Part shown: positions 1-41,684 of the stretch, in pieces | Layout of the letters: each line of letters opens with the position of its first letter | How positions within the stretch are numbered: position 1 is the first letter of the stretch | IMG/VR virus record: IMGVR_UViG_3300010396_000020 | Location: 1-45,032 of that record | DNA from: a virus | Direction: 5' to 3' (one strand) | Length of the DNA stretch: 45,032 nt | Program-made: the position numbers and the translations under genes | The notes under the pieces: model-generated | Database searches by the model: none | What the model was told of the DNA's origin: nothing | Seen by the model: the letters and a program-made list of their open reading frames with translations, nothing else

Positions 1-123
1 ACCTTGGTACTGGCTGGAACCCTGACCTCTGTTTCATGGGCAAATCCTGAAGTCTTTTCAGAATCAATCGAGTCCTTGCTTTCAACATCACTTCTGGGAA
101 ACGGAGAATATCTCACAGGATGC
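1..123. repeat. Terminal direct repeat, left copy; identical to 44910..45032. Read as the overlap of a circular or circularly permuted genome.
   Basis: The first 123 nt (accttggtactggctggaaccctgacc...ctcacaggatgc) recur exactly as the last 123 nt. The offset is fixed by the GTG at 45025, which equals position 116. Confidence 0.9.
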
Positions 124-2935: not shown

Positions 2936-4948
2936 TCATGCCAACTGTTCGATTATTGCAGATATCTTGTATGCTACGGATGTTCCAGTGAAGGTTGTTT
3001 TGACTATAATATTAGCTCCTGAATTATCAATGTCAAACTCCCACGATCCACTATAAGTTACGTTTGCGCTAACGGATGTTGTCAATCCAACTGTTGTGGA
3101 GTTTTGTGTGAATATTGGTAAGTTTGCTGGAGTTTGGGCATGAGAATTAGAATCAGTCCATGCTAATGTCCATCCAAGTGTTGCGGCTGTTGCAGCTGAT
3201 ACAGAAATTGAAACAGTTACCCTATATCTTCCAGCCACAGAAGGAGGAGTATAAGTCAAGACGTTTGTATCAGCTCCAGTTTCTGATTTTTGTAATGTAG
3301 AACCGTAGATAGTAGATAGTCCTTGTCCTGCTGTTGAAATGTTTGCATATCTCGTAATTTTTCCAGTATTTCCTAAAACCATCAAAGTTGTTTGAGTTCC
3401 TACTCCTGTTAGTTGTCTCCATGCAAACGAATCAGTTGCCGAAGTAAAAGTATTCCAAAAGTCTATAGCTGAAGATTGGAAATTCCATCCAATAGCTCCT
3501 ACTCCTGTTGCAGAAGAGGGATATAGTGTATTGTTGTTTCCATTGATGTACACAAATGTATTTCCTCCAGCTCCTAAAATAATATTGGAGTATGTTGTGA
3601 TTGTTGCCGCAGTATCAAGACTCATTAGTTTTGTTCCATTGTTGTAAAAGTTAAGTGGTCTGAAAGATCCTGTTCCTCCCTTGTTTACATAGAGTGCGTG
3701 TTCGTTGGATGTGCCAAAGTCAGAAGTAAGCATCACAAGCTCATAATTTGTCGCTATATCGCTAGTCCTGAAAACGTAAAGCCCTGATGATTTTGTTGTG
3801 CCAGCTGGTGATAATGCCAAAACTGATTGATTGTTTCCCGAAGAACGAGATAATCCAATAGCTGTGACACTTGCGGCTGTTGTTTCTAATATTGTATAAT
3901 TCGAAGTTGTCAAAGAGTTTGCGCCAAGTGCAATATTAGCTCCAGACATTGTAATTGTTCCAGTGAATGTTTGGGCCAGTCCAAGTGTTGCCAAGGTATC
4001 TGTTCCAGTTATCAGAGGAAGATTGAGGATTCTGTTGGCTGTGATAGCGGCTGGAGTTAATACATAGTTGAAAGTAAATGCTGGATTTGTTATGTTTATA
4101 GTTCCATCATCATTGAGCCTGAAAACTTCTGAGAGAGTTGTTGTTGTTTTCTTTGTCGTCAAAAATGAGATATATGTTCCATGTGCCGAGCCAGATTGGT
4201 TCTCAGCTGCAACAAGTCTTATCTGTGGGTTTCCAGCTGCGGCAAAGGATGTTCCATCATAAGCTCTTCCAGTAAGTGAAGTGATGATATCATTAGCTGA
4301 GAGTGTTGTTGGGCTTGCCTTACTTCCCCTTGCAGCTCTTCCAATAAAATGATTATAAAATCCTGTTCCATAAGCATCAAGTAAAATCTGGGCATCTCCT
4401 CCGTCTTTCACTCCATGGATCAATTCAGAGGCAACAAAGGTTCCAATATTGATTCCAATTTGGTTGTCAATTTCTACAACTCCAGAGAATGTTTGCTTTA
4501 ATGCAAAGGTATTGAGTGATGATGTAAGAGCTGCAAGATAGTTTCCAACTTCATTCCAGTTGGTTCCATCATATTGTAAAAGCAATCTGACTGATGTTGA
4601 AAGGACTTTGTCTGTGGCCCCTTGTAATTGGATGTTACCTGAGCCATGTTTCACAGTGATTGTTTGGCCAGCTGCGGCCAATAATTGGACTACATCATGA
4701 TTAAGGGCATCAGTTGAGGTGATTGTAACAAGATTGTCAGGACTTCCTCCTTCTCCAGTGATTACGTGTAATGCGTCTGACAAGACAAATGCATCAGTCG
4801 CCAGAGTTGTTGATGTTCCGATATATCCAACAATACCTTGCTGTTTGTGTGCATTTCCATTCCAGTCTCTTTGTGGCTGGATGTCAGAAGTTCCATCGTC
4901 TGGCTGTGTTGCAACTCTCACATGACGATCATATTCAACACGAGTCAT
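2936..4948 (-). CDS. Tail fibre or receptor-binding protein, 670 aa.
   Basis: Track ORF rich in T/S/G/N/A, with long beta-rich low-charge stretches typical of fibres. It lies in the structural region. The call rests on composition and position only. Confidence 0.65.
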   Translation of the reverse strand: MTRVEYDRHVRVATQPDDGTSDIQPQRDWNGNAHKQQGIVGYIGTSTTLATDAFVLSDALHVITGEGGSPDNLVTITSTDALNHDVVQLLAAAGQTITVKHGSGNIQLQGATDKVLSTSVRLLLQYDGTNWNEVGNYLAALTSSLNTFALKQTFSGVVEIDNQIGINIGTFVASELIHGVKDGGDAQILLDAYGTGFYNHFIGRAARGSKASPTTLSANDIITSLTGRAYDGTSFAAAGNPQIRLVAAENQSGSAHGTYISFLTTKKTTTTLSEVFRLNDDGTINITNPAFTFNYVLTPAAITANRILNLPLITGTDTLATLGLAQTFTGTITMSGANIALGANSLTTSNYTILETTAASVTAIGLSRSSGNNQSVLALSPAGTTKSSGLYVFRTSDIATNYELVMLTSDFGTSNEHALYVNKGGTGSFRPLNFYNNGTKLMSLDTAATITTYSNIILGAGGNTFVYINGNNNTLYPSSATGVGAIGWNFQSSAIDFWNTFTSATDSFAWRQLTGVGTQTTLMVLGNTGKITRYANISTAGQGLSTIYGSTLQKSETGADTNVLTYTPPSVAGRYRVTVSISVSAATAATLGWTLAWTDSNSHAQTPANLPIFTQNSTTVGLTTSVSANVTYSGSWEFDIDNSGANIIVKTTFTGTSVAYKISAIIEQLA

Positions 4949-5397: not shown

Positions 5398-5542
5398 TTT
5401 TTATCACCTTGGTTTTATCCCCATTTTTTAAGACAAAGATATTCTCTTCCTTGCCCACGAAGATTGGCTCATCTATCCATCCATCCAATTTCTTGACATC
5501 GACTCCGGCCTTGTCTAGCTTGTCTTTGATTGAAGTCAACAT
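5390..5542 (-). CDS. Small hypothetical protein, 50 aa.
   Basis: Hand-translated as MLTSIKDKLDKAGVDVKKLDGWIDEPIFVGKEENIFVLKNGDKTKVIKNG. It overlaps both neighbours (ATGTTGA and ATGGTTAG). Below the track size cutoff. Confidence 0.4.
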   Translation of the reverse strand: MLTSIKDKLDKAGVDVKKLDGWIDEPIFVGKEENIFVLKNGDKTKVIKNG

Positions 5543-5955
5543 CTATTCTCCTTCTTAATTGAGGTTAGTTGATGATAAATCTCTTCTTGTTTGACTTTAT
5601 CAATCTTAGGAGCTCCAAATTCTCCAGCCATGACTTTTCTTCCAATAGGAAATTGCAACGCTAACATCAGTTGTGATGATTTGATTCTTGAGAATGGAAG
5701 TAACATCATAGACATTCTTTTTGCATCATTACTATAAAATGACAAATGCCAGCCAATTTTATGATGCTCTTTGCTTTTCTTGTAGTCTTTGCGAGTCAAA
5801 CTCCCTCCATATTGAGCTTGAACTGATTGCAAGAAGAACTTGTCAGTATTGATGAGAACTAATCTCAATCCAAAATAATTCCACTTTTTTGTCTTGACTA
5901 CTCCAACATAACCATCAGCATCAAAGAAGCCAGCCAGATACTCTGGGCTAATCAT
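5536..5955 (-). CDS. LAGLIDADG homing endonuclease, single-motif and free-standing.
   Basis: The N-terminus MISPEYLAGFFDADGYVG carries the LAGLIDADG motif. At 139 aa the size is typical of homodimeric family members. It sits between unrelated genes. Confidence 0.8.
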   Translation of the reverse strand: MISPEYLAGFFDADGYVGVVKTKKWNYFGLRLVLINTDKFFLQSVQAQYGGSLTRKDYKKSKEHHKIGWHLSFYSNDAKRMSMMLLPFSRIKSSQLMLALQFPIGRKVMAGEFGAPKIDKVKQEEIYHQLTSIKKENRC

Positions 5956-6647: not shown

Positions 6648-7286
6648 TTATTTCAGTCTGTTCTTCCAACCGGATATTGCATTTGTAATTCTGATATAAG
6701 CTCCGGTGGCCCATGTCCTTTTTCCGTAAAGGTTCTGAATTGCAGCTTTGTCAGTTGCATCAAGCATCAGTTTTCCATTATACATGAAATACATGATTGC
6801 TGATGGATTTGGATCGTGTGGAAGGCCCAACGAGTGGCCTGATTCGTGTTGCATTGTATTGAGTGGATTCCATTGGAAGTTTGTTCCAGAGAAGCTCCAG
6901 TTTAGCAAGTCATTGAGTTTGATATGGATTGGACTGTCTGTTCCATCTGGCATCATAGAATATCCCATGATTCCAGTGTTGCCCTTGATGACAGGATCAG
7001 CGTTGCCATCAACCCATTCGAAAGTAATATCTGGATTCTGAGTTGACTTGACATTTACGAGATTGATTGGGATCTCGTCTTGCCATGTCTGCATTACAAG
7101 TCTCATTCCAATAGCAATCTCGTGTTGATCTGGAATATCCTGAGTGCCTTTGAGTAATGCAAAGGTCACAATATTTTTGTTCCACTTGGCAACAACTTGA
7201 TTCTCTGATAACTCATAAGTGATCTTAGTTGGAATCATATTCTCGTCAGGGATGCAACGCATCACACAGCCAATTTGTGGAGTCAT
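6648..7286 (-). CDS. Matrixin-type (M10A, MMP-like) zinc metalloprotease with an N-terminal cysteine-switch-like motif and no signal peptide.
   Basis: HESGHSLGLPHD fits HExxHxxGxxH. The Met-turn is SAIMYFMY. DKAAIQNLYG resembles the MMP D..GIQ.LYG element. VMRCIPDE at residues 8-15 resembles the PRCGxPD cysteine switch. Confidence 0.88.
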   Translation of the reverse strand: MTPQIGCVMRCIPDENMIPTKITYELSENQVVAKWNKNIVTFALLKGTQDIPDQHEIAIGMRLVMQTWQDEIPINLVNVKSTQNPDITFEWVDGNADPVIKGNTGIMGYSMMPDGTDSPIHIKLNDLLNWSFSGTNFQWNPLNTMQHESGHSLGLPHDPNPSAIMYFMYNGKLMLDATDKAAIQNLYGKRTWATGAYIRITNAISGWKNRLK

Positions 7287-7843
7287 TTCTTCTTCACTCT
7301 AAGAATAACAAATGAAAGGATTCCACTAATAATCAAAGTAAGGCCAGCAATATTTCCAAACTCTGGAACTGGAACTGTGTTGTTTCCATTGATTGGATTG
7401 GGGCCAGTCTCAGTGTAACAATAGGATGGATAGATATAGCCAGTCAAGTCCTTGATGACAGTTCCATTGGTTGCAACTGTGTAAGTCTTGTTTAGATATC
7501 CATCTTGGTTCTTGAGAATCATCAATGCGATAGGACAGTAATTGGATGTTGGAGATGCAGTTGTAACGATTGGAGGCTCACAAAGGCCGTTGTTGAATCC
7601 TCCACAAGCTGTGAAAAATCCAACATTGTTTTTGATTGCTGTGTAATTTAGAGGGGCCAAGACAACGTTATTCTCTTGCACTCCGGTTGGAGTTATGATG
7701 ATTTGAAAAAAGTAATTGAAGTTACTTCCCTGAAAGTTTGGAACTCGGTTAAAGACTTGTTCTCTCTGGGCCTTGGACATGATTGGAATCTTCGAGTCTG
7801 CAAAGGCTGGAGAGATGACAAATCCAATAATTAGTATCATCAT
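7283..7843 (-). CDS. Secreted protein with a signal peptide and a C-terminal PEF-CTERM archaeal sorting signal.
   Basis: The C-terminus is PVPEFGNIAGLTLIISGILSFVILRVKKK: a PEF motif, a TM helix and a basic tail. The likely start is MM at 7843/7840, giving signal peptide MMILIIGFVISPAFA|DS. The track start at 7900 is an upstream alternative codon. Confidence 0.7.
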   Translation of the reverse strand: MMILIIGFVISPAFADSKIPIMSKAQREQVFNRVPNFQGSNFNYFFQIIITPTGVQENNVVLAPLNYTAIKNNVGFFTACGGFNNGLCEPPIVTTASPTSNYCPIALMILKNQDGYLNKTYTVATNGTVIKDLTGYIYPSYCYTETGPNPINGNNTVPVPEFGNIAGLTLIISGILSFVILRVKKK

Positions 7844-7921
7844 CACTATGCATGGGATGTCTCGTTCATAGTTCAATATAAAAAGAAGAGAGAATCTCAC
7901 GTTTAAAAAGATTGTGAGTGG

Positions 7922-8392
7922 TTATTTTGTTTCAGCCGTAGCCGATGAGGCTGGGGCTGATGGATTTGCTTTTTTGCCTTTGATCCAGTTACCAAATAAT
8001 GGCCTTGTGGTCAAGTTGATTGCATGAAGGAAGAAGTAATTTACGGCAAAGATAGCAAGCTGGACAATCTCGGAATTGCCTGTCAATTTTGTTGCATCAA
8101 TTCCAGCCCAGCTTAAACCTATACCAATTACAGCTCCCAAGATTAGATTGGCCCCCAATTTGTAAGGATCAATCTTTTCTCCAGCTCCTTGATGGTTCTT
8201 GTTGATTATTGTCATGAATGACAACAATACTCCGGCCAATGCGCCAAAGCCTCCAGTCTTGAAGGCAGTTGCGGCACTTACTCCGGCCAAGGTTGCATCA
8301 GTCGAGCTGTCAGCAAAGGCATAACCTGTCATGATTGTTGCTGTTGAGACAACAAACAGAACAAGGAATAGCATCTTTGTTGATGTTCGCAT
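7922..8392 (-). CDS. Multi-pass membrane protein with an N-terminal signal peptide, 156 aa.
   Basis: The signal peptide LFLVLFVVSTATIMTGYAFA|DS has the same AFA|DS cleavage-like site as the next gene. Several Gly/Ala-rich hydrophobic helices follow. Confidence 0.7.
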   Translation of the reverse strand: MRTSTKMLFLVLFVVSTATIMTGYAFADSSTDATLAGVSAATAFKTGGFGALAGVLLSFMTIINKNHQGAGEKIDPYKLGANLILGAVIGIGLSWAGIDATKLTGNSEIVQLAIFAVNYFFLHAINLTTRPLFGNWIKGKKANPSAPASSATAETK

Positions 8393-8521
8393 AATGTTAA
8401 GAAAATTCTAGTTGCATAAAAAGACTCTGTAAGGTTGCACGCCTACCATGGCAGAAAGATTTCCCACCAACAATATTTTTGTTCTTTTTCAGTGGGGGAT
8501 GATTTTGATTCAGCCACTTTG

Positions 8522-8716
8522 TTATCTTTCTCTTTTATTACCATACTCTTGTAATAACCTTCCGACTTGTATGCCCATCAGTATGAAAGAGCCAATCAAT
8601 CCGTTTATGATTTTGGATTCGAATGTTGAGTCTTGAAATGAAAGAGAGCCAAGGCCACAAAAATAACCTGTTATTGCGTTGCCAAATATCTTGGCCAGAC
8701 GCATTCTCCAAAACAT
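8522..8716 (-). CDS. Small two-TM membrane protein, 64 aa; holin-like by size and topology only.
   Basis: Hydrophobic segments ITGYFCGLGSLSF and INGLIGSFILMGI. ATG 8716 lies 22 nt downstream of the promoter box at 8739..8750. The competing track ORF 8538..8831 overlaps the portal gene and looks non-coding. Confidence 0.5.
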   Translation of the reverse strand: MFWRMRLAKIFGNAITGYFCGLGSLSFQDSTFESKIINGLIGSFILMGIQVGRLLQEYGNKRER

Positions 8717-8769: not shown

Positions 8770-10425
8770 CTAATTTTCATAGTTCCACTTTTGAGATTTC
8801 TTGTTTTTGCCCCAGCCTTTTTCAACAACAACTTGGATATTGCCTTGAGATGGTTTCAAGTCTTTGGCCCACTTCTTGGAAGCCCCCCAGCCCATTGAGA
8901 CTGAGTTTGTCTTATCCCAAGCCTTTTGCCATGATGGATTGATTCTCTTCCATGTTGCAACAGATGGATCAGACTGTTCTCCTTCTGTGTCGTGAGTAGC
9001 TGCATACTTGGAGAGTCCTAGTTTCTCAAGCAATCCCTCCTTGGTGATTACTCCGTCTTGTACCATCTCTTTGAGTAATGCGTAATACTGAGGATCGATG
9101 GTTAATGAAATCTCTGGCCTGTTGAAATGATGTCTCATTCTCACAGGGCATTTGTCAGGATCGTCAACTTCATCCGGTTCTATGTCAAATAATATGGCCA
9201 AGACTCTATCATATCCCTGTTTCTCAAGTGTCATCTCAAGGATATTTTGTTCTGGCCTGATTTCATTTTCTAAGAATGCATCAGTCTCTTCTTGGTTTGC
9301 ATTTCCTCCAAGGTTGCCTTGCTTGCCCTTTGCCAGCATGAAAGGAGGAATATTGTAAAAGCCAGCAACGGCATCAATACACTCATTCTGGATTGAAACC
9401 ACTCCGTTGATATCTCCAGAGTTTTGAGGAGTTGGGAGGAGCTCCACTGTCTGAGTGACAGCGATATCTTTTCCAAGTGAGTTGTTGCGTCTGAAGAGAA
9501 AGTCATCAAGAACCTTCTGAGGATTCTTATAGTCTCTTGCTGGAACTGTAACCTTGAATATCTGTGGCTTGTGCCAAGTGTACTCGGCAGCTTGTCTCAA
9601 GTCTTGGGCATAAATTGTCAGAAGAGTCTTTCCAATATCTTCGAGAGGATCAATGAGTGACCTTCCATAGTAATCAGCAAACAAGTCAAGATTGAATTGA
9701 TTTACAAAATAGATGCAACGGTTTGCATCAAGCCTTCCTCCATTTGTTGTCAGTCCAACAACTTCGACAGCTTCCAAGGCCCCACTGTCACGATTCAGCA
9801 AAGGCCTTCGAGTAAACTCGGGCCTGATGAGTCTGATTGCTTTTGGTAACTGATAATATCCATTTTCATCTCGCATCTCAGGAAACATTCCAACGGCACA
9901 ACGGCCCTGTTCTCTTGTATAATCATAAGCATTGAATGTCACTGATTCCAAGTCAAGCTTGTCAAACATCTTGTCAATCCAAGATTTTAGTTTCTCTGGC
10001 GACATCTGAGCTGGCGCAATTCCGGTTCTCTCAAAATATGGAATTGTGATTTTTTGTTTTCTCCAAGAGGTCATCAATGATTCCTTGATTTCTTTATCCT
10101 CTCTTGGCTCGATTGATGTTGTGTAGCCGTTGCCAGTAACTAGCTTCTGGATGATGTTGTTTGCCCTCAAGATGTATGGTATTTTAGTATGAATGGCCCT
10201 AAACATGGCTCGCTGTTGTGGGCGATAAGGATCAATGGAAGGATAAATTATCAGTCCTCCAAGCGGCCTCATTGATTGAGAAGATTGTTTCTTCTCAAGT
10301 GCTTGGCCTTTGCCTCTTGGATCAGATGGATCCCATTTTGGAGGATTGACTTCTCTTGTAGTTTTACTGACTGAAATCCATGCCGGAGCTGCAAAGCGTT
10401 GTTTTGATTCAGCCAATGATATCAA
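8770..10425 (-). CDS. Portal protein.
   Basis: 551 aa, directly downstream of the terminase nuclease gene. Contains a portal-like element FYNIPPFMLAKG. The start (TTG 10425 in the track) is uncertain. Confidence 0.7.
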   Translation of the reverse strand: MISLAESKQRFAAPAWISVSKTTREVNPPKWDPSDPRGKGQALEKKQSSQSMRPLGGLIIYPSIDPYRPQQRAMFRAIHTKIPYILRANNIIQKLVTGNGYTTSIEPREDKEIKESLMTSWRKQKITIPYFERTGIAPAQMSPEKLKSWIDKMFDKLDLESVTFNAYDYTREQGRCAVGMFPEMRDENGYYQLPKAIRLIRPEFTRRPLLNRDSGALEAVEVVGLTTNGGRLDANRCIYFVNQFNLDLFADYYGRSLIDPLEDIGKTLLTIYAQDLRQAAEYTWHKPQIFKVTVPARDYKNPQKVLDDFLFRRNNSLGKDIAVTQTVELLPTPQNSGDINGVVSIQNECIDAVAGFYNIPPFMLAKGKQGNLGGNANQEETDAFLENEIRPEQNILEMTLEKQGYDRVLAILFDIEPDEVDDPDKCPVRMRHHFNRPEISLTIDPQYYALLKEMVQDGVITKEGLLEKLGLSKYAATHDTEGEQSDPSVATWKRINPSWQKAWDKTNSVSMGWGASKKWAKDLKPSQGNIQVVVEKGWGKNKKSQKWNYEN

Positions 10426-10451: not shown

Positions 10452-11174
10452 TTAATAACTCATTAGTGAACTGTCAAAACCCATCAGCTTATCAATCTCT
10501 GCATCAATATCCCTCTCGTCTTGCTGGGTTCCAATCCTTCGAATCATTGGAGGAGGCATATTGAGAACATAGGGAAGAGCAACATAACAGGCATAACCCA
10601 AGGCCCAAAATCTGTCATCATGTCTGTTGCTTGGATGCTTGTATCGAATGTTTCCAGCGTCAGTCTTGATGAGTTCCTGTTCCTCGATCTGCCTGACAAG
10701 CTCTGACTCGTTGCCAACAAACAATTTCTTGGAATTGAAGAGTCCTCTGACAATAGAGACAATCTCAACCTTGAGAGTGTCAGTTGTCTTGAGAGGTTCC
10801 ATTCTCAGGCCAGTAACATCAAAGAACTCTTGAGCTGCATCTCCAACTCCAGCCCTATCAAATCCCATCATCTCCCATGGATATTTTGTGTAAATCTTGA
10901 AGATGTCAGATGAAACCTTTCGATAATTGACATGGGGCCAGAGCATGAATGCCTCTTCCCTCAGTGACCTTTCTCCAGTCTTGAGGTCAGTGTCCATCCG
11001 CAATAATTCAAATGCAGAATGGTCAACTCTTTTGGCAACATCAAGGCCTGAGAACCTTGGTATTGGAGGCTCTTCTTGTGATATCAGACGAGGGTTATGG
11101 CCTTGTACTACTCTCGGATTGACTTGGCTTGGAGTAGCGACTCCATACTCCTCAACATATTGGGCCTGACTCAA
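10452..11174 (-). CDS. Large terminase, nuclease (RNase H-like) domain only.
   Basis: Three acidic-residue motifs in TerL order: GLDVAKRVDHSAF, GFDRAGVGDAAQEF and NRHDDRFWALGYACY. The TTG start at 11174 overlaps the upstream TGA. The portal gene follows. Confidence 0.8.
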   Translation of the reverse strand: MSQAQYVEEYGVATPSQVNPRVVQGHNPRLISQEEPPIPRFSGLDVAKRVDHSAFELLRMDTDLKTGERSLREEAFMLWPHVNYRKVSSDIFKIYTKYPWEMMGFDRAGVGDAAQEFFDVTGLRMEPLKTTDTLKVEIVSIVRGLFNSKKLFVGNESELVRQIEEQELIKTDAGNIRYKHPSNRHDDRFWALGYACYVALPYVLNMPPPMIRRIGTQQDERDIDAEIDKLMGFDSSLMSY

Positions 11175-12015: not shown

Positions 12016-12404
12016 ACATTAATCACATTTCCTTGAAGTGCTTGCCATTGGGCGAATCGTTTGCCTTTATACAATAGACTTTTTTCTTTCTCATACCAAT
12101 TATGTTGCCAAGTCACTCCAAATTCTCCAGAGTTCTCTCTAAAGAAGATATGACATTTGACACATTGGATGATATTTGATTCGTGGCCAAATGTTTCAAC
12201 TATATCAGTTTCTAAGTGAGGACAATCTGTCTGATGTGGATCAAGAAGTTTTTCATTATAAGAACGATATTGAAAGGCCTTGGTTCCCTCTTGCACTCCA
12301 ACCTTCTTCCAGAATTTATCAAATTGCTCAGCTGTGAGAGTCTTGAGTTTACCATTTACTTTGATTATTACTCGTTGATATGGAAGATGAATTTCTTTCT
12401 TCAT
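12012..12404 (-). CDS. Hypothetical Cys/His-containing protein, 130 aa.
   Basis: Track ORF with a 4-nt overlap upstream. Contains CPH...CVKCH. Confidence 0.6.
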   Translation of the reverse strand: MKKEIHLPYQRVIIKVNGKLKTLTAEQFDKFWKKVGVQEGTKAFQYRSYNEKLLDPHQTDCPHLETDIVETFGHESNIIQCVKCHIFFRENSGEFGVTWQHNWYEKEKSLLYKGKRFAQWQALQGNVINV

Positions 12405-12694
12405 TGTGACTCGGCCCTATAATCAATCTCAACAAACTCCGGATAACATTTCTTGCAAAAAGTGTCATGGCCTTTGCCGTCACAAGCTCCGCATTTCTGC
12501 GATTGGTCAAGACGGTTCTCATAGGTAAAGTAAAAGATTCCAGTTCCTCCACACTCTCCACAATAGGCCTTCTTGAGTCTGAAGATAGTTCCACAGTTCC
12601 AGCATGAAGGGATTCCGAACTTGATACAGATTCTCTCCCAAAGATATTGCAAGTCAATCATGAAACAAATCAAGGATCTCATACTATTAAACAT
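12401..12694 (-). CDS. DnaJ-type zinc-finger-like protein with two CxxCxGxG repeats.
   Basis: CGECGGTG and CGACDGKG match CxxCxGxG, with additional CWNCG and CKKC pairs. Confidence 0.6.
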   Translation of the reverse strand: MFNSMRSLICFMIDLQYLWERICIKFGIPSCWNCGTIFRLKKAYCGECGGTGIFYFTYENRLDQSQKCGACDGKGHDTFCKKCYPEFVEIDYRAESQ

Positions 12695-14237: not shown

Positions 14238-14576
14238 TTATTCTCGCCAGATGCCATTTGTTACAAATCCATGGATTGTCTTGTCTGGATCATACTCTAT
14301 GAGAATTGATGGATGGATTGTGAGTTTGGATACATCTCCATTCTCAAGTTCTTTATCGCCTGTAATATCCCAGCATCTATGAGGATTTGGCTTGTCAGGA
14401 TGTGGACATCTTGAAGCGCAAGTATTGAGAGCAAACTCCACGAATTGCATATACGCTTTTGGATCAGGAATTGGAAGGCAAATCTTCCAGTCTTGCAGAT
14501 ACTCAGCATAATAGATATCTCCAGCTTGTAATTGGCCCTTGAAACCTTTTGGTAAGACTCTCAACTTTAGTTCCAT
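14238..14576 (-). CDS. DUF6527-like protein with a Cys/His cluster, 112 aa.
   Basis: CASRCPHPDKPNPHRCWDITGD...KLTIHPSILIEYDPDKTIHGFVTNGIW matches my recollection of the DUF6527 pattern W.(F/I).GD ... T.(S/H)PSIL ... H.F(V).(D/N)G.I. TAATG overlap with the TerL ATPase stop. Confidence 0.5.
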   Translation of the reverse strand: MELKLRVLPKGFKGQLQAGDIYYAEYLQDWKICLPIPDPKAYMQFVEFALNTCASRCPHPDKPNPHRCWDITGDKELENGDVSKLTIHPSILIEYDPDKTIHGFVTNGIWRE

Positions 14577-15625
14577 TAATCTCTCATATCCTCATATCCC
14601 AAGAACGCTGATAAATCTTCTGGCTGTTTCTCAGGATCAGTGATTACTTGGATTTCATCCTCTGGGATTGCAGCTCGCTTGGTTGTGGTAAAGCGGCACA
14701 TATACTCTTGTGGAAAGTCAACCCTTGGATCCTTCTTCTGTCTCTCGATGTACTCCTTGGATAAGACTCCATACTTGAGGGCCTCTGTGTAATCAACCTC
14801 AATGTAATGGTAATGATTCTTCTTTGGAACTGACTTTGCATCCATGGTAATATCATAATAGAATCCTCGCTTTCCGTTTGGAGTTGATTCAAAGACTAGA
14901 TCACCAATGTCTCTGTTGGCCAAGAGTGGAGTAAGTGCCGTATAGATTGGATAGTCATCAATAGCTCCAGAGTGTGCGGCCTCGGTAAAGAAAACGGAGA
15001 TGACATCATCAAGGCCTCTGAAGCTCTGGGCCTTGCCTGACTTGCTTGCAGCTGCGCAAAAGTGTCGATGTCCATTGTAAAATTCAACCATTGGAATCGG
15101 ACTCTTGGAGTATCGCATCACTAAATCTCCATAGGCCCATTTCTTACCGTCTTTGTCAGTGACTCCATTATGGAATAATTCATCAAACCTGTCAAGAACC
15201 TCGACAGCAACATTAAGCTCGTTTCCAGCAACAATCAAAGAATCATGGCCAGCATACTTGGAAAATGTGAGTCTTGACTCTGCCCTTATCCTTCCATCAG
15301 TAAAGGCCCCCTTTCTTGTCTTGTTTACAATTACTGTATGATATTTTTCCACATCATACTCGTATTGAATCTGATAGGGAACCATTGGAACAGGCTGATT
15401 GAGGAGTCTTGATTGGGGCCATCCAATCATTCTGTTGTACTCTTGGACAGCATAGGAATATTCTTCATACGTACAAGTTTGGATGTCTGGCAACAATAAC
15501 GGATCAAGCTGGGGGAAATCTCTCACATCTGCATATCTAAGGCCCTTGTCCTCGATTACTTGGTCAACAGTCTTGGCAGTTAGTGAGCCAATCTTTCTGG
15601 GATCAAAGTTGATGAGTGATGTCAT
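14576..15625 (-). CDS. Large terminase, ATPase domain only.
   Basis: Deviant Walker A VNKTRKGAFT; Walker B-like DDVISVFFTEAAH; coupling motif FESTPNGKRGFYYD; QEYMCRF near the C-terminus. No nuclease motifs. ATGA overlap with the small terminase gene. Confidence 0.82.
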   Translation of the reverse strand: MTSLINFDPRKIGSLTAKTVDQVIEDKGLRYADVRDFPQLDPLLLPDIQTCTYEEYSYAVQEYNRMIGWPQSRLLNQPVPMVPYQIQYEYDVEKYHTVIVNKTRKGAFTDGRIRAESRLTFSKYAGHDSLIVAGNELNVAVEVLDRFDELFHNGVTDKDGKKWAYGDLVMRYSKSPIPMVEFYNGHRHFCAAASKSGKAQSFRGLDDVISVFFTEAAHSGAIDDYPIYTALTPLLANRDIGDLVFESTPNGKRGFYYDITMDAKSVPKKNHYHYIEVDYTEALKYGVLSKEYIERQKKDPRVDFPQEYMCRFTTTKRAAIPEDEIQVITDPEKQPEDLSAFLGYEDMRD

Positions 15626-21208: not shown

Positions 21209-22108
21209 TCAGTCCTCATTCTCCGGATGCTTCTTGGCATAATCCTTGGCAAACTTTTCCAAGGCTCGTTTCTCTGCATTCTCTCGTTCAACTATGTCTT
21301 GGAATTTATCCATATCAAGCAAGTTCTGGATATTGCTTGTGACAAGGTTCTTCAATACCTGTGGCTTGAGTGCATCAAGTTCCCATGATTCGTCACCATG
21401 TCTGTCAGTATATCTTCCAGCCCTTGAGTCAGTCATCTTGACAGGGTTTGGAGGAGGATTATATCTTTGAATCTGTGCCATAGTCAAAGCAACTTTCTCA
21501 ACTTCGATGTCACATCCAAACTCTGTCAGTCTGTCCTTGATGTCTCTGACCATATCTTCTCCAGATGGATCATGATCACCAAAGTAAAGTATCGTGCAAC
21601 TCTTGTCATCCTGTTCATCCATGATTCGAAGAGCTGCGTCATGCATGGCACTAACTGAGGAATATCCCTTGTTTACCATTAGATGGACATGATATTCTTG
21701 GGTGATTGGAAGCAAGACTCCAGAGAGTGCATCCTTCTCAACCCAAACCTCAACGTAATTGTCTTGACCTTGCCATCTGTTTCGTCTGTATGAGTATAAC
21801 GCTGACTTTACAATATCTTGGATTCCATCCCATGAGCTCGGAATCTTTGGAACTCTGACTCTGTCCTCAATGATGTTCCAGTCAACTTGGCCGCACATTC
21901 TGGCATCGGCAAGCATCTTTCCAATCTTCTTATAAGATAACATAGTATTTGGGATGATATCTTGAGAGACAAGCTGGTAATACAACTGTCTAAGAGTTAG
22001 CTTGTAGCCTTGCTGACCATAATCTTCCACAACTCCGATTATCTGATCCAAGAGTCTTTGATTGGCTGAATTGAGTTTCTTTGGTTCTCTGTATTGTTCT
22101 GTTCCCAT
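21209..22108 (-). CDS. Stand-alone Topo VI subunit A / Spo11-like protein (winged-helix with catalytic Tyr plus Toprim; 'Mini-A'-like).
   Basis: LTLRQLYYQLVS is a CAP-type element with a YY pair. VWVEKDALSGVL carries the Toprim Glu. LYFGDHDPSGEDMVRDI carries the Toprim DxD. All three occur in the canonical order. 299 aa. Confidence 0.72.
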   Translation of the reverse strand: MGTEQYREPKKLNSANQRLLDQIIGVVEDYGQQGYKLTLRQLYYQLVSQDIIPNTMLSYKKIGKMLADARMCGQVDWNIIEDRVRVPKIPSSWDGIQDIVKSALYSYRRNRWQGQDNYVEVWVEKDALSGVLLPITQEYHVHLMVNKGYSSVSAMHDAALRIMDEQDDKSCTILYFGDHDPSGEDMVRDIKDRLTEFGCDIEVEKVALTMAQIQRYNPPPNPVKMTDSRAGRYTDRHGDESWELDALKPQVLKNLVTSNIQNLLDMDKFQDIVERENAEKRALEKFAKDYAKKHPENED

Positions 22109-22522: not shown

Positions 22523-23035
22523 TCAATGAGATTCCTCCATAGGAATTGAACGTTTGAGAATTTGTTCTTGAACCCATTCTTTGATTTCTTTTGCTGACAT
22601 ACTCCAATCAATATCTTGGTTGATTGTTGCAATCTTTTCCCATTTGAAAGTTTGATAGTAACTCAAAGCGAGTTTATCATCTTCCAAGGCATCAGCTAAC
22701 AAGGCTAATGCAAGTTGTGAAGGGCCAGAGCCTCCATATCCCCAAGCAAATCCATCCGGAGAGTGATTGACCAAGTCTAGTCTTTTGTTCAATGGGATTG
22801 TTTCGATTCCATTGGTGACGTTGACTTCCCAATTCAAATCTCCATGGGATTTCCCTTGGTATGATTTCTCTCCTTGTAAAATAAAGAGAGGTTTCTTCGT
22901 TTTCTGATCCCTTGCGATTCTGCCTGTGCTGAGTCCATGATATCGGCCTCCACAAGCGCATTGGCATACGTCAGATTTTGCGTGTGCGCATCTCTCATCA
23001 TGCTTTCTTCCATTCACTTCGATTTGTTGTGACAT
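22523..23035 (-). CDS. Hypothetical protein with an N-terminal Cys cluster and a conserved-looking HSPDGFAWGYGGSGP domain.
   Basis: CAHAKSDVCQCACGGRYHG, then DLVNHSPDGFAWGYGGSGPSQLALALLAD. I recall this pattern from uncharacterised phage and mobile-element proteins but cannot name the family with certainty. Confidence 0.6.
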   Translation of the reverse strand: MSQQIEVNGRKHDERCAHAKSDVCQCACGGRYHGLSTGRIARDQKTKKPLFILQGEKSYQGKSHGDLNWEVNVTNGIETIPLNKRLDLVNHSPDGFAWGYGGSGPSQLALALLADALEDDKLALSYYQTFKWEKIATINQDIDWSMSAKEIKEWVQEQILKRSIPMEESH

Positions 23036-40502: not shown

Positions 40503-41684
40503 TTATGCTGGGGCCACTGGCGTTGTTGCGCCTGTCATCCTTCTTCCAGTGTTTGTGTTGATGATTGCTGACAAGTGGAAATCAAAGATTCCGTAAATCT
40601 CGGAACCTGAAATTTCTTCACGCTTGCTAGCGACTCTTGTTGGGCCTTGGAACAAAGCGCAACAGGTTTCATCACCTACGTCTAAGACGTAAGCAACACC
40701 TTGAGGGATGAAGTAGTCTTGAGCTAGGCCCACTCCAGCCAAACCCTTTATTGGTCTGAGAGCTGGTTCCCATGAGGGATCTGGGGCTGGCTCGAAGAGT
40801 CCTCTGACGTATGAGTTTGACTCATAGTCTGTGTATGATACAGAGTGCATACCCATTCTGTTGAATGTGCCTCCGATTCCAGTTGCTTCGATTGAAGAGG
40901 TGATGACTCTTGCAATATCCTTCTTTGGATTGATTGTAGAGTGATCAGTGTTTGAGGTGAATGCGCCCCAATCTCCAAGAGCTGCAACTGAAGTCAAGCC
41001 ATTTTCTAGGGTTTGAACTATGTCATAGCTGACTCTTTGATCTACTTTGGTTGATGCCACTGTGATTGAGTCCTGAAGTGGATTGTGTATGTTCTTGAGC
41101 ATCGCTTCCTCGGAAATTTCGAAGATAAGACCGTACTTCTTAGCCTCGAAGTGAGCTCTGGAATACCTTACCTCTTTCGGGAAAGGCAACTGGAGTTCTC
41201 CGATTTCAACCATGCCAGAATATTTCTTGATTGTATCGATGTCGATAACCAAGTTTGGCACAGCTATCTCTTGTGCGAGATATCGAGCTGCATACTTTCT
41301 TTCTTTAAGCCCGTAGAGCTTTGGAAAGACATTCAGGATGTTAACCACTGAGTTAGCTCCAGAGGTGAGAGCTGCCATCTTCTGTCTGCCTCCGGCAAGA
41401 TAGTTGTCTCTAAATTCGAGATACATTTGATGAAATTGTTCATCAATGTAAGGCGATTTCATGTCAAGACCTGAGAAATCAAGTCCGTCAAGAGATGCCT
41501 TTCTCATCATAGAGATATTTGCAACTCTTATCTTTGGATCAAAGACAGGGAAGAAATCTCCCTTGAAGCCATACTCTGGCTCTGCGATTCCAGCATATAC
41601 GAGTTTATCAGTTGGGTTTAACCAAAACTGATATCCATTGTTTAGATGGTTGTTTGTCATTACTTGTTCGGTTACTTCTGTCAT
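40503..41684 (-). CDS. Major capsid protein (HK97-fold expected).
   Basis: 393 aa, following the scaffold-like and decoration-like genes, and followed by a terminator-like tract. Called from size, position and composition. Confidence 0.72.
   Translation of the reverse strand: MTEVTEQVMTNNHLNNGYQFWLNPTDKLVYAGIAEPEYGFKGDFFPVFDPKIRVANISMMRKASLDGLDFSGLDMKSPYIDEQFHQMYLEFRDNYLAGGRQKMAALTSGANSVVNILNVFPKLYGLKERKYAARYLAQEIAVPNLVIDIDTIKKYSGMVEIGELQLPFPKEVRYSRAHFEAKKYGLIFEISEEAMLKNIHNPLQDSITVASTKVDQRVSYDIVQTLENGLTSVAALGDWGAFTSNTDHSTINPKKDIARVITSSIEATGIGGTFNRMGMHSVSYTDYESNSYVRGLFEPAPDPSWEPALRPIKGLAGVGLAQDYFIPQGVAYVLDVGDETCCALFQGPTRVASKREEISGSEIYGIFDFHLSAIINTNTGRRMTGATTPVAPA

What the first reader, a model, noticed from the sequence alone, without database searches (positions are those of the whole stretch)
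6648..7286. Virus-encoded matrixin (MMP-like) protease with a cysteine-switch-like motif and no signal peptide: a candidate S-layer-degrading lysis enzyme
Seen in the sequence: a full metzincin catalytic signature, HESGHSLGLPHD followed by the Met-turn AIMY. The MMP-specific element D..AIQNLYG is present. At residues 8-15, VMRCIPDE resembles the PRCGxPD cysteine switch that keeps MMP zymogens latent. There is no N-terminal hydrophobic signal.

The gene is the last of a co-oriented block: a small two-TM protein (8522..8716), a multi-pass membrane protein (7922..8392) and a PEF-CTERM secreted protein (7283..7843, overlapping the protease start by ATGA).

Established knowledge: thaumarchaeal envelopes are a proteinaceous S-layer without murein, so a peptidoglycan endolysin would be useless there.

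Inference: this may be a holin-like membrane protein plus protease egress module, analogous to holin and endolysin, with latency provided by the cysteine switch. As far as I know this has not been described as a lysis strategy for tailed archaeal viruses.
Basis: partly seen in the sequence, partly recalled or inferred. Interest (0 to 1): 0.72.

Follow-up and report, generated by a model that had tools for sequence, protein, structure and literature searches.

The report
Archaeal-virus matrixin protease, lysis-like cassette
A complete ~45-kb tailed virus genome, probably of ammonia-oxidising archaea, encodes a signal-less MMP-type zinc protease that is almost always next to small membrane proteins, which makes it a testable candidate for how such viruses escape cells whose wall is protein; the function is inferred, not shown.

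Summary
ORF 6648..7286(-) is a full-length matrixin catalytic domain (Pfam 1e-21; AF2 pLDDT 91; TM 0.82-0.84 to MMP-7 and karilysin), with no signal peptide or TM segment.

It belongs to a leaderless clade found in Nitrososphaerota cells and viruses. Members are ~205-235 aa. They have one near-invariant Cys 3-19 residues from the N-terminus; this is window C7, not C11 of the "RCIPD" motif. They carry a basic C-terminal helix and lack the MMP structural Zn/Ca sites.

In 9 of 9 distinct soil-type loci the protease follows a secreted, PEFG-CTERM-anchored ~200-aa protein, in 8 of them with a 4-bp overlap. Small TM proteins of unrelated families lie upstream. In 54 IMG/VR viral loci the gene just upstream is a TM protein in 77%, against a 14% background. 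After dereplication it is 10 of 15 clusters (Fisher p = 4e-6).

The cassette sits in at least five genomic contexts. Some relatives add a second, secreted matrixin.

A holin-like plus protease egress module is the best reading (~0.45) but is circumstantial. Cellular homologues, the unexplained PEFG partner and the unverified Cys switch keep rivals alive. I found no prior description.

The parts
6648..7286 (-). Leaderless matrixin (M10) protease, 212 aa
   Evidence: Pfam PF00413 E = 1.1e-21, full length. Karilysin and MMPs in PDB. AF2 pLDDT 91. Foldseek TM 0.82-0.84. No TM or signal peptide.
7191..7286 (-). N-terminal 32-residue pre-catalytic segment with C7 (nt 7266..7268) and C11 (nt 7254..7256); candidate cysteine-switch pro-segment
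   Evidence: C7 column holds Cys in 76 of 85 family members, and MAFFT places it on the PRC cysteine of matrilysin. The Cys lies 3-19 residues from the N-terminus in about 70 of 85. AF2 predicts a beta-hairpin at residues 7-13 and 19-26. Contact with the zinc site was not verified.
6816..6848 (-). Catalytic zinc motif HESGHSLGLPH (H147, E148, H151, H157)
   Evidence: Invariant in 85 of 85 sequences. The Met-turn M165 (nt 6792..6794) is at least 90% conserved.
6651..6722 (-). C-terminal extension KRTWATGAYIRITNAISGWKNRLK; basic, moderately amphipathic helix, not part of canonical MMP domains
   Evidence: W192, Y197, R199, A203, R210, L211 and K212 are invariant among the 11 close relatives. A Y.R.K.W...R.RR-type tail is present across the wider family. 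AF2 helix 194-210 at high pLDDT. Hydrophobic moment 0.32, net charge +3.
7283..7843 (-). Secreted, Cys-rich ~186-aa protein with an N-terminal signal peptide and a C-terminal PEFG-TM-basic sorting signal (nt 7286..7366). Its stop overlaps the protease start (ATGA). An alternative GTG start lies at 7900.
   Evidence: Hydropathy. 14 homologues, none with a name given by a source and no Pfam family precomputed; every one whose contig I looked up lies on a phage-like contig. In 9 of 9 distinct loci it lies directly upstream of a metzincin. PEF is conserved in 18 of 18. TIGR04296 PEFG-CTERM scores 24.5 and 23.1 bits for homologue tails.
7922..8392 (-). 156-aa membrane protein: signal peptide plus about 3 TM segments
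   Evidence: Hydropathy. Proteins of similar architecture but no detectable sequence similarity occupy the same slot in L001, L002, L005 and L008.
8522..8716 (-). 64-aa protein with two Gly-rich, weakly hydrophobic segments and a charged C-terminus (holin-like features)
   Evidence: Homologues at about 30% identity in the same position in L002, L005/6 and L008. Hydropathy maximum 1.52. No homology to the small TM partners of IMG/VR relatives (hhalign probability 5%).
8770..10425 (-). Portal protein, 551 aa, upstream flank of the cassette
   Evidence: Weak matches to Pfam Phage_portal, TIGR01537 and phrog_12. 36% identity over 513 aa to the portal of IMG/VR locus L055, where a 2-TM gene plus matrixin also follow the portal.

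Best explanation
The four genes 8716..6648(-) form an envelope-directed proteolysis cassette. Its most likely role is virus egress.

Proposed mechanism:
1. The matrixin is made in the cytoplasm without a signal peptide. (Shown.)
2. It is probably kept latent by its N-terminal segment, with the thiol of C7 proposed to cap the catalytic zinc. (Inferred from conservation only.)
3. One or more of the adjacent small membrane proteins permeabilise the membrane late in infection. (Inferred, by analogy with holins.)
4. The protease then reaches the proteinaceous S-layer and cuts it, releasing virions. (Inferred.)

The secreted PEFG-anchored partner sits on the outer face of the membrane. It may modulate or localise the protease, for example as a surface-anchored cognate inhibitor like the potempins of karilysin. 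(Speculative.)
For: 1. The enzyme looks active and is leaderless. It has an intact HExxHxxGxxH motif with the catalytic Glu and the Met-turn, and an MMP fold. It has no export signal. Only 5 of 85 family members have a hydrophobic N-terminus.

2. It is linked to membrane proteins.
- All 9 distinct soil-type cassettes have 1-3 small TM proteins directly upstream.
- In 54 IMG/VR viral loci the -1 gene is a TM protein in 36 of 47 cases, against 81 of 572 for background genes.
- After dereplication into 15 clusters, a small co-oriented TM protein is at -1 in 10 of 15 and within +/-3 genes in 15 of 15. Fisher p = 4e-6.
- The TM partners belong to unrelated families, while the enzyme is conserved. 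This is the classic pattern of holin plus lysin.
- Five homologues fuse a 4-TM domain to the N-terminus of the Cys-plus-matrixin unit.

3. The cassette is modular and occupies at least 5 contexts.
- After the portal (window and L055).
- After the MCP (L002, L005, L008).
- After a tail fibre (L001).
- Before an integrase (L003, L004).
- Before the portal or TerL, at the end of the early genes (L010-13, L032).
- Otherwise almost nothing is shared between these genomes.

4. No other recognisable envelope-degrading enzyme was found among the window ORFs scanned.

5. Related viruses place a secreted matrixin paralogue next to the leaderless one. This points to an extracellular protein target.

6. 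The egress machinery of tailed archaeal viruses on S-layer hosts is unknown, and holins have not been identified (review PMC10791045).
Against: - There is no functional or expression data of any kind.
- Leaderless homologues sit in ordinary cellular neighbourhoods of Nitrosopumilus chromosomes, so the family has a non-viral role.
- One related 64-kb virus (L017) has the protease with no PEFG partner, and its only nearby TM gene is convergent.
- The partner most tightly coupled to the protease, by translation, is a secreted anchored protein rather than a holin-like one. A simple holin/lysin model does not need it.
- Secreted paralogues would need no holin.
- The 64-aa protein is only weakly hydrophobic.
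- The positive-inside rule puts the protease domain of the TM-fused homologues on the cytoplasmic face. That fits an intracellular target equally well.
- The actual host and its envelope are unknown.
Confidence: 0.45

Rival explanations
1. Surface-remodelling or exclusion module. The PEFG-anchored protein and the protease alter the infected (or lysogenic) cell surface, for example by removing or masking the receptor to block superinfection, or by reshaping the S-layer for assembly. The PEFG protein acts as a surface-anchored partner or inhibitor. The effect is not lysis.
For: - The PEFG protein and the protease are strictly coupled by translation in 9 of 9 loci.
- The position next to an integrase in L003/L004 is also typical of lysogenic-conversion morons.
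- There is a precedent. Potempins are surface-anchored inhibitors encoded by ORFs that overlap the start of the downstream karilysin or KLIKK peptidase gene (PMC9890683).
- Secreted matrixin paralogues occur in relatives.
- The cellular homologue in N. adriaticus lies among secreted and anchored proteins.
Against: - The protease has no export signal, so it cannot reach the surface of an intact cell.
- The profile of the PEFG protein finds no potempin or other inhibitor in PDB.
- The protease plus small-TM pairing persists in many viruses that lack the PEFG protein.
- Presence across many divergent lineages suggests a core step of the cycle rather than an accessory one.
Confidence: 0.2
2. Intracellular, membrane-proximal host-takeover protease. 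It acts in the cytoplasm or at the inner face of the membrane on host proteins such as defence, division or transport proteins. The N-terminal Cys and the C-terminal basic helix serve regulation and membrane docking.
For: - It is leaderless.
- The TM-fused homologues are predicted N-in/C-in, which places the protease domain in the cytoplasm.
- The C-terminal helix is basic and amphipathic.
- Leaderless homologues occur in cells.
- In L066 and L017 the gene lies among DNA-metabolism genes.
Against: - Matrixins are, as far as is known, extracellular enzymes, and a thiol-capped zinc would stay latent in a reducing cytoplasm (established MMP knowledge, not tested here).
- Adjacency to secreted matrixin paralogues and to a secreted anchored protein points outward.
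- No candidate substrate is known.
Confidence: 0.15
3. Virion-associated protease. Either a non-canonical prohead maturation protease, or a packaged or tail-associated enzyme used at entry. The C-terminal basic helix would be the capsid- or scaffold-targeting signal.
For: - In the window and in L055 the gene follows the portal, where prohead proteases often lie.
- No canonical prohead protease was recognised in the window.
- The C-terminal helix is conserved.
Against: - Known thaumarchaeal tailed proviruses use S78-type or chymotrypsin-like serine prohead proteases (PMC6563490).
- The enrichment of TM neighbours, the TM fusions, the secreted paralogues and the cellular homologues are unexplained by head assembly.
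- In L055 a divergently transcribed secreted matrixin separates the portal from the cassette.
- Other contexts are far from head genes.
Confidence: 0.08

Closest known systems
Karilysin (Tannerella forsythia) and the vertebrate MMP catalytic domains MMP-7, -13 and -20 (MEROPS M10A, Pfam PF00413)
   Same: - Full-length catalytic domain match, with the HExxHxxGxxH motif, the Met-turn and a C-terminal helix ending in YG.
- Predicted fold TM 0.82-0.84.
- A short N-terminal pro-segment, like karilysin's, rather than an ~80-aa prodomain.
   Different: - No signal peptide.
- The structural-Zn ligands H, D, H, H are A, D, Y, K, and the Ca ligands are lost.
- The pro-segment carries a Cys only 7 residues from the N-terminus. 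Karilysin uses an Asp, and MMPs use PRCGxPD.
- There is an extra basic C-terminal helix.
- Identity is about 25-30%.
Holin-endolysin lysis cassettes of tailed bacteriophages
   Same: - A leaderless hydrolase encoded next to small membrane proteins with charged C-termini.
- The enzyme is conserved while the membrane partners are diverse.
- The cassette is modular and moves between genome positions.
   Different: - The effector is a protease, not a muralytic enzyme. The presumed target is a protein S-layer.
- There is an additional secreted, anchored partner.
- No homology to any holin family.
- Function untested.
Potempin-KLIKK peptidase operons (potA-karilysin), PMC9890683
   Same: - An upstream ORF whose stop overlaps the peptidase start.
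- It encodes a small secreted, membrane-anchored protein.
- The downstream enzyme is a matrixin.
   Different: - The anchor is a C-terminal PEFG sorting signal, not an N-terminal lipobox.
- No sequence similarity to potempins.
- The peptidase here is not secreted.
- Inhibition untested.
PeiP/PeiW pseudomurein endoisopeptidases of methanogen viruses, and virus-associated pyramids of crenarchaeal viruses (the archaeal virus egress systems named in the sources I read)
   Same: An archaeal-virus-encoded tool aimed at the host envelope (reviewed in PMC10791045 and PMC12596118).
   Different: - Pei enzymes cut pseudomurein, which S-layer-only hosts lack.
- Virus-associated pyramids are self-assembling membrane proteins, not enzymes.
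- Neither is related to matrixins.
Matrixins of insect viruses (granulo-, asco-, entomopox-, irido- and nudiviruses) and a few phage M10 proteins
   Same: - Virus-encoded MMP fold. These are the top BFVD structural matches, with E from 6e-11 to 1e-7.
- In granuloviruses they help break host barriers (from my own knowledge, not checked here).
   Different: - The hosts are eukaryotes, and those proteins are usually secreted and larger.
- No relative of the window protein in 50,697 GenBank phage records by tblastn.

Membership tests
Matrixin / MEROPS M10A (Pfam PF00413) | Profile match above the curated threshold over the whole catalytic domain | tested here: met
   77.8 bits against a cut-off of 24; profile positions 1-159 of 159.
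Matrixin / MEROPS M10A (Pfam PF00413) | HExxHxxGxxH zinc site with catalytic Glu, plus a Met-turn | tested here: met
   H147, E148, H151 and H157 are invariant in 85 of 85 sequences. M165 is at least 90% conserved.
Matrixin / MEROPS M10A (Pfam PF00413) | MMP catalytic fold | tested here: met
   AF2 pLDDT 91 and pTM 0.87. Foldseek TM 0.82-0.84 to MMP-7 and karilysin.
Matrixin / MEROPS M10A (Pfam PF00413) | Structural zinc (His, Asp, His, His) and calcium sites of classical MMPs | tested here: not met
   The aligned residues are A, D, Y, K, and the Ca ligands D, D, E are K, N, L. Most of the clade lacks them too. So this is a minimal matrixin, not a classical MMP.
Matrixin / MEROPS M10A (Pfam PF00413) | Cysteine-switch latency (PRCGxPD in a prodomain, thiol on the catalytic Zn) | tested here: inconclusive
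   There is no PRCGxPD motif. MRCIPD (C11) occurs only in close relatives. C7 is conserved in 76 of 85 sequences and aligns with the switch Cys. The geometry was not inspectable.
Matrixin / MEROPS M10A (Pfam PF00413) | Secretion signal | tested here: not met
   Maximum 19-mer hydropathy is 0.41, and no upstream extension of the ORF is possible.
Holin-endolysin-type lysis cassette | Leaderless envelope hydrolase adjacent to small membrane protein(s) with at least 1 TM segment and a charged C-terminus | tested here: met
   Window 64-aa and 156-aa genes. 9 of 9 soil-type loci. 77% against 14% at position -1 in IMG/VR loci, p = 4e-6 after dereplication.
Holin-endolysin-type lysis cassette | Membrane protein forms lethal holes; the enzyme degrades the host wall; late expression | not testable with these tools
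   Needs expression, permeabilisation and S-layer cleavage assays, and transcript timing.
Holin-endolysin-type lysis cassette | Homology of the membrane protein to a described holin family | tested here: not met
   No Pfam, PHROG or NCBIfam hit for the 64-aa or 156-aa proteins. This test is weak, because holins are very diverse.
PEF/PEFG-CTERM archaeosortase substrates (TIGR03024 / TIGR04296) | N-terminal signal peptide plus a C-terminal PEF(G) motif, TM helix and basic cluster | tested here: met
   ...AFA|DSK signal peptide and VPEFG-IAGLTLIISGILSFVIL-RVKKK tail. PEF is conserved in 18 of 18 homologues, even after a domain insertion in P0027.
PEF/PEFG-CTERM archaeosortase substrates (TIGR03024 / TIGR04296) | HMM score above the curated cut-off | tested here: inconclusive
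   Homologue tails score 24.5 and 23.1 bits against a cut-off of 25 for TIGR04296. The window tail gives no hit.
PEF/PEFG-CTERM archaeosortase substrates (TIGR03024 / TIGR04296) | Cognate archaeosortase in the host | not tested
   The host genome is unknown. PEFG-CTERM proteins are reported in Nitrosopumilus (PMC6593220).
Potempin-type cognate inhibitor operon | Upstream overlapping ORF encoding a small, secreted, anchored protein | tested here: met
   ATGA overlap. Signal peptide and anchor. Precedent.
Potempin-type cognate inhibitor operon | Sequence relationship to potempins, or demonstrated inhibition | tested here: not met
   The A4 profile search against PDB finds no potempin (8b2q is in that library); best E = 0.03, to unrelated TPR proteins. 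Inhibition is not testable here.
Caudoviral prohead protease | Assemblin-like or ClpP-like serine protease encoded next to the scaffold or MCP | tested here: not met
   It is a metzincin. The MCP candidate lies at 40503..41684, far from it. Thaumarchaeal proviruses use S78 or chymotrypsin-like proteases.

The most novel reading that the evidence does not exclude
Tailed viruses of ammonia-oxidising archaea lyse their hosts with a three-part system not known from any phage.
1. A holin-like membrane protein releases the enzyme.
2. The enzyme is a cytoplasmic, thiol-latched minimal matrixin. Its two N-terminal cysteines (C7-x3-C11) keep it off in the reducing cytoplasm. It switches on, by oxidation or autocleavage, once it reaches the pseudo-periplasm, where it cuts the S-layer.
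3. A virus-encoded inhibitor or positioner, anchored to the surface by the host archaeosortase (the PEFG protein), sets the timing or protects kin cells from lysis from without.
Probability: 0.15. Interest if true: 0.88.

Novelty: new variant of a known kind. Interest (0 to 1): 0.68.

Why it matters
How tailed archaeal viruses get out of hosts that have only a protein S-layer is an acknowledged open question. The 2024 review PMC10791045 states that the players are uncharacterised and that no holins have been identified.

Ammonia-oxidising archaea are major players in the nitrogen cycle, so how their viruses kill them matters ecologically.

This cassette turns the question into concrete experiments. 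It offers a small soluble enzyme with obvious point mutants (E148A, C7A, C11A), defined membrane partners and a defined secreted partner. It recurs in at least 70 viral contigs from different collections.

It also defines an unrecognised clade of minimal matrixins shared by Nitrososphaerota cells and their viruses. These are leaderless and lack the structural metal sites. That bears on the origin and regulation of the MMP family.

Tried and rejected
- **AF2 on the 11 close homologues.** It failed (pLDDT 37). It was repeated with 85 sequences.
- **Searches with the close-family alignments for related loci.** IMG/VR returned nothing with A1. GTDB genomes returned nothing with A2. The JGI metagenome scan with A2 gave only 6 loci. 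A3 was too diverse to derive search patterns. A mid-distance alignment, A5, then found 62 IMG/VR loci.
- **tblastn of the protease and the portal against 50,697 GenBank phages.** No match.
- **Homology among the membrane partners.** Window 156 aa against L001 135 aa against N. adriaticus 153 aa gave nothing. Soil against marine small TM families gave hhalign probability 5%. They are analogous, not homologous.
- **Window 211-aa protein against L005 219 aa.** No similarity, although the 219-aa and 179-aa proteins are homologous to each other.
- **PEFG protein profile against PDB.** Nothing meaningful.
- **Prohead-protease idea.** Considered because of the position after the portal. Judged unlikely, for the reasons given under the fourth rival.
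- **Look-up of the TM-fused homologue P0037.** It gave only a 1.9-kb contig.
- **Literature.** No paper combines 'matrixin' with 'archaeal virus'. Papers on soil AOA viruses and on lytic proteins do not mention it. Ahlgren et al. 2019 was not available, so prior mention there or in Lopez-Perez et al. 2019 cannot be excluded.
Full report
**1. The observation**

The window has 123 identical bases at both ends. The same contig exists in ENA at 45,050 bp. So this is a complete, circularly assembled ~44.9-kb genome.

Almost all genes are on the minus strand. The genome carries the hallmarks of a tailed virus:
- a terminase large subunit, present as two ORFs at 14576..15625 and 10452..11174;
- a portal at 8770..10425;
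- an HK97-type major capsid protein candidate at 40503..41684.

ORF 6648..7286(-) encodes 212 aa. It matches Pfam Matrixin end to end, with E = 1.1e-21 and 77.8 bits against a cut-off of 24. Its best solved relatives are karilysin (E = 1e-16) and then MMP-20, -7, -2 and -13.

A first AF2 run on 11 sequences failed with pLDDT 37. An 85-sequence alignment gave pLDDT 91.0 and pTM 0.87. That model superposes on MMP-7 and karilysin with TM 0.82-0.84.

The protein has no hydrophobic stretch at all; its maximum 19-residue hydropathy is 0.41. The three upstream co-oriented genes are as described, and the ATGA overlap is real.

**2. What kind of matrixin it is**

The word-indexed search found only 11 close relatives, all metagenomic. 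An exhaustive profile search of 1.84 billion representatives found 3,961 hits at E <= 1e-3, of which 17 were below 1e-30.

The best hits form a clade of ~205-235-aa proteins that match the profile from about residue 4 to about residue 211. In an 85-sequence alignment (A3):
- The four catalytic residues are invariant.
- The classical structural-zinc ligands are A, D, Y, K in the window and are mostly absent from the clade. The calcium ligands are not kept either.
- One cysteine column holds Cys in 76 of 85 sequences. MAFFT places it on the switch cysteine of matrilysin's PRCGVPD. This is window C7.
- The Cys lies only 3-19 residues from the N-terminus in about 70 of 85 sequences. Only 5 of 85 have a hydrophobic N-terminus.

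C11 and the PRCGxPD-like 'MRCIPD' motif occur only in the closest relatives. C7 and C11 are the only cysteines in the protein.

After the canonical ...LYG end there is a conserved basic helix of the Y.R.K.W...R.RR type. AF2 predicts it confidently at residues 194-210. Its hydrophobic moment is 0.32 and its net charge +3.

I could not read the model coordinates. Whether C7 reaches the zinc site, and what the C-terminal helix packs against, remain open.

**3. Host**

Named members of the wider clade come from Nitrososphaerota/Thaumarchaeota MAGs, from Nitrosopumilus MAGs, and from the Nitrosopumilus adriaticus chromosome (WP_371503653.1).

The partner protein ends in VPEFG-TM-RVKKK. Tails of its homologues score 24.5 and 23.1 bits against the PEFG-CTERM model TIGR04296, whose cut-off is 25. 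All four papers in the library that mention PEFG-CTERM concern ammonia-oxidising archaea, and PEFG-CTERM proteins are detected in Nitrosopumilus proteomes.

A relative on a 64-kb contig co-occurs with MCM and RadA-like genes. The thaumarchaeal assignment is therefore well supported, though indirect.

**4. Conservation of the block**

Look-ups of homologues of the protease and of the PEFG protein gave 9 distinct soil-type cassettes: the window, L001, L002, L003/4, L005/6/7/18/19, L008, L010/11/21/22, L012/13 and L020.

- In all nine, a PEF(G)-anchored ~190-210-aa protein lies directly upstream of a metzincin.
- In eight of them the overlap is 4 bp. In L003 a 40-aa ORF intervenes.
- The PEF tripeptide is conserved in 18 of 18 homologues, including one with an inserted domain.
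- In L012/13 the 212-aa type is replaced by a very divergent 264-aa metzincin (HELRHGIGDVH...MMYP) behind a 66%-identical PEFG protein. This argues for a functional pairing rather than a merely inherited one.
- Upstream there are always one to three small TM proteins. A 64-68-aa two-segment family occurs in the window, L002, L005 and L008. A 74-aa two-TM family occurs in L010-13. Others occur in L001, L003 and L020.
- Apart from these genes, and a 464-670-aa downstream protein, the genomes share almost nothing detectable by BLASTP.

**5. Wider test**

A mid-distance alignment (A5) recovered 62 IMG/VR viral loci. Their protease genes are again leaderless. The full-length ones mostly have Cys at residue 4-6, a few further in (up to residue 31), and they carry the basic tail.

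- Across 54 loci, the gene immediately upstream has a predicted TM segment in 36 of 47 cases (77%). For genes more than four positions away the figure is 81 of 572 (14%).
- After collapsing to 15 clusters at about 70% identity, a small co-oriented TM protein is at -1 in 10 of 15 clusters and within +/-3 genes in 15 of 15. The background is 13%. Fisher p = 4e-6.
- Gene calling was a simple greedy ORF picker and TM prediction a hydropathy threshold. Both were applied identically to neighbours and background.
- The small TM partners of the soil and IMG/VR groups are not detectably homologous (hhalign probability 5%).
- Five homologues of 392-545 aa fuse a multi-TM domain in front of the Cys-plus-matrixin unit. 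For two of them the positive-inside rule gives four TM segments, N-in and C-in. That places the protease on the cytoplasmic side.

**6. Genomic position**

- The window and IMG/VR locus L055 share TerL-C (39% identity), the portal (36% over 513 aa) and downstream genes. In both, a two-TM gene and the matrixin follow the portal.
- In L055 a divergently transcribed gene lies between the portal and the cassette. It encodes a second matrixin with an N-terminal signal or anchor.
- In L026 and L032 such a secreted matrixin (261 aa; Pfam M10, 32 bits) lies directly downstream of the leaderless one, a few genes before TerL.
- Elsewhere the cassette follows the MCP (L002, L005, L008), follows a tail fibre (L001), precedes an integrase (L003, L004), or sits between methylase or early genes and the portal (L010-13).
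- In L066 and L017 the protease lies among DNA-metabolism genes.

The unit is thus mobile within late and boundary regions, as lysis cassettes are.

**7. Interpretation**

The data fit a holin-like plus protease egress module better than the alternatives.
- It is the only recognisable envelope-directed enzyme among the window ORFs scanned.
- It is leaderless and plausibly latent.
- It is tied to diverse small membrane proteins.
- It is modular.
- It occurs in viruses whose presumed hosts have a protein wall. That last point is established knowledge about AOA envelopes, and was not tested for the actual host.

I put this at about 0.45.

Four things keep it from being higher.
1. Everything is contextual.
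2. Leaderless homologues occur in ordinary chromosomal neighbourhoods of Nitrosopumilus. The N. adriaticus gene sits after two secreted proteins, one of them C-terminally TM-anchored, and before a 153-aa membrane protein with a signal peptide and TM segments. So the system may be a captured cellular one of unknown role.
3. The tightest partner is a secreted anchored protein that the holin/lysin analogy does not need.
4. Secreted paralogues in relatives need no holin.

For the PEFG partner the closest precedent is the potempin system. In Tannerella, ORFs whose stops overlap the start of karilysin and other peptidase genes encode small surface-anchored inhibitors that protect the producer's own surface (PMC9890683). 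No sequence similarity supports this here. It is a lead only.

The rivals are surface remodelling or exclusion (0.2), an intracellular takeover protease (0.15) and a virion or prohead protease (0.08). The last draws on the position after the portal and on the absence of a recognisable prohead protease in the window. It does not explain the membrane and secreted partners, the TM fusions or the cellular homologues. Known thaumarchaeal proviruses use serine prohead proteases (PMC6563490).

**8. Novelty**

- The 2024 review of archaeal virus entry and egress states that the egress system of tailed archaeal viruses is uncharacterised and that holins have not been identified.
- A 2025 survey of prokaryotic viral lytic proteins lists Pei enzymes and pyramids for archaeal viruses and does not mention metalloproteases.
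- No paper in the library combines 'matrixin' with 'archaeal virus'.
- Two papers on soil AOA viruses do not mention peptidases.
- Two key papers on marine thaumarchaeal viruses were not available to me, so an annotation-level mention cannot be excluded.
- Virus-encoded matrixins as such are known from insect viruses, and a few phages have them. None of 50,697 GenBank phage records has a relative of this one.

I therefore rate it a new variant of a known kind. It is a lysis-cassette-like arrangement whose effector is a minimal, leaderless, cysteine-bearing matrixin, with an archaeosortase-signal partner.

Noticed in passing
window 14576..15625(-) and 10452..11174(-): The terminase large subunit is split into an ATPase ORF and a nuclease ORF about 3.4 kb apart, with small ORFs in between (a Zn-ribbon at 12401..12694 and a DUF6527-like ORF at 14238..14576). 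Relatives also have stand-alone halves: L055 has a 190-aa TerL-C before the portal, and L032 a 299-aa TerL-N. It looks like a lineage trait rather than an assembly error.
   Followed up: partly
window 5536..5955(-): A LAGLIDADG-type homing endonuclease (phrog_5046, 1.4e-18; weak Pfam LAGLIDADG) sits between the 211-aa and 149-aa genes just downstream of the protease. It is absent at the equivalent place in L005 and L055.
   Followed up: no
window 1..123 and 44910..45032: A 123-bp exact terminal repeat. The window is a complete, circularly assembled genome, and the ORF ending at 45025 probably continues across the junction.
   Followed up: partly
L012:10567-11361 and L013:10204-10998: A very divergent 264-aa metzincin (HELRHGIGDVH...MMYP, leaderless) replaces the 212-aa matrixin behind a 66%-identical PEFG-anchored protein. 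This is an apparent in-place swap of the protease.
   Followed up: partly
L032:6737-7522, L026:6756-7541, L055:4775-5668(-), L048:4622-5554(-): IMG/VR relatives encode a second matrixin of 261-310 aa next to the leaderless one. It has an N-terminal signal or anchor, its own Cys motif (..C-I-M/C-V-F..P.P) and HEFGHxLGLGH. These viruses therefore carry one cytoplasmic and one exported matrixin.
   Followed up: partly
proteins P0037, P0038, P0042, P0043, P0053 (metagenomic): Homologues of 392-545 aa have a multi-TM domain (four TM segments in two of them, N-in/C-in by the positive-inside rule) fused upstream of the conserved Cys plus matrixin. These look like membrane-tethered zymogens. Their genomic context is unknown; the only contig retrieved was 1.9 kb.
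   Followed up: partly
L015 (Nitrosopumilus adriaticus CP167059.1, 935917-956798): A cellular 293-aa homologue has the same Cys and basic helix, plus a C-terminal coiled coil. It lies after two secreted proteins (613 aa; 789 aa with a C-terminal TM anchor) and before a 153-aa membrane protein with a signal peptide and TM segments. Housekeeping genes (tRNA synthetase, TBP, TFB) are nearby.
   Followed up: partly
window 8702..8716(-): The 64-aa gene begins M-F-W-R-M. The two in-frame Met codons are four codons apart with an Arg between them, which resembles holin/antiholin dual-start motifs. The feature is not conserved in the L002, L005 and L008 homologues.
   Followed up: no
window 2936..4948(-); L005:11693-13087; L055:7497-9116: A 464-670-aa protein of unknown function (weak Phage_depo_C; phrog_30390) is conserved a few genes downstream of the cassette in soil and IMG/VR relatives. 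It is often preceded by a Zn-ribbon protein and a phrog_5417 protein of 176-219 aa. Possibly a receptor-binding or fibre module.
   Followed up: partly
window 21209..22108(-) and 22523..23035(-): A strong match to phrog_6247, annotated 'DNA topoisomerase' (1.5e-97), and a DUF6166 protein (6e-28) lie in the replication region. They are the best-conserved non-structural genes in the window.
   Followed up: no
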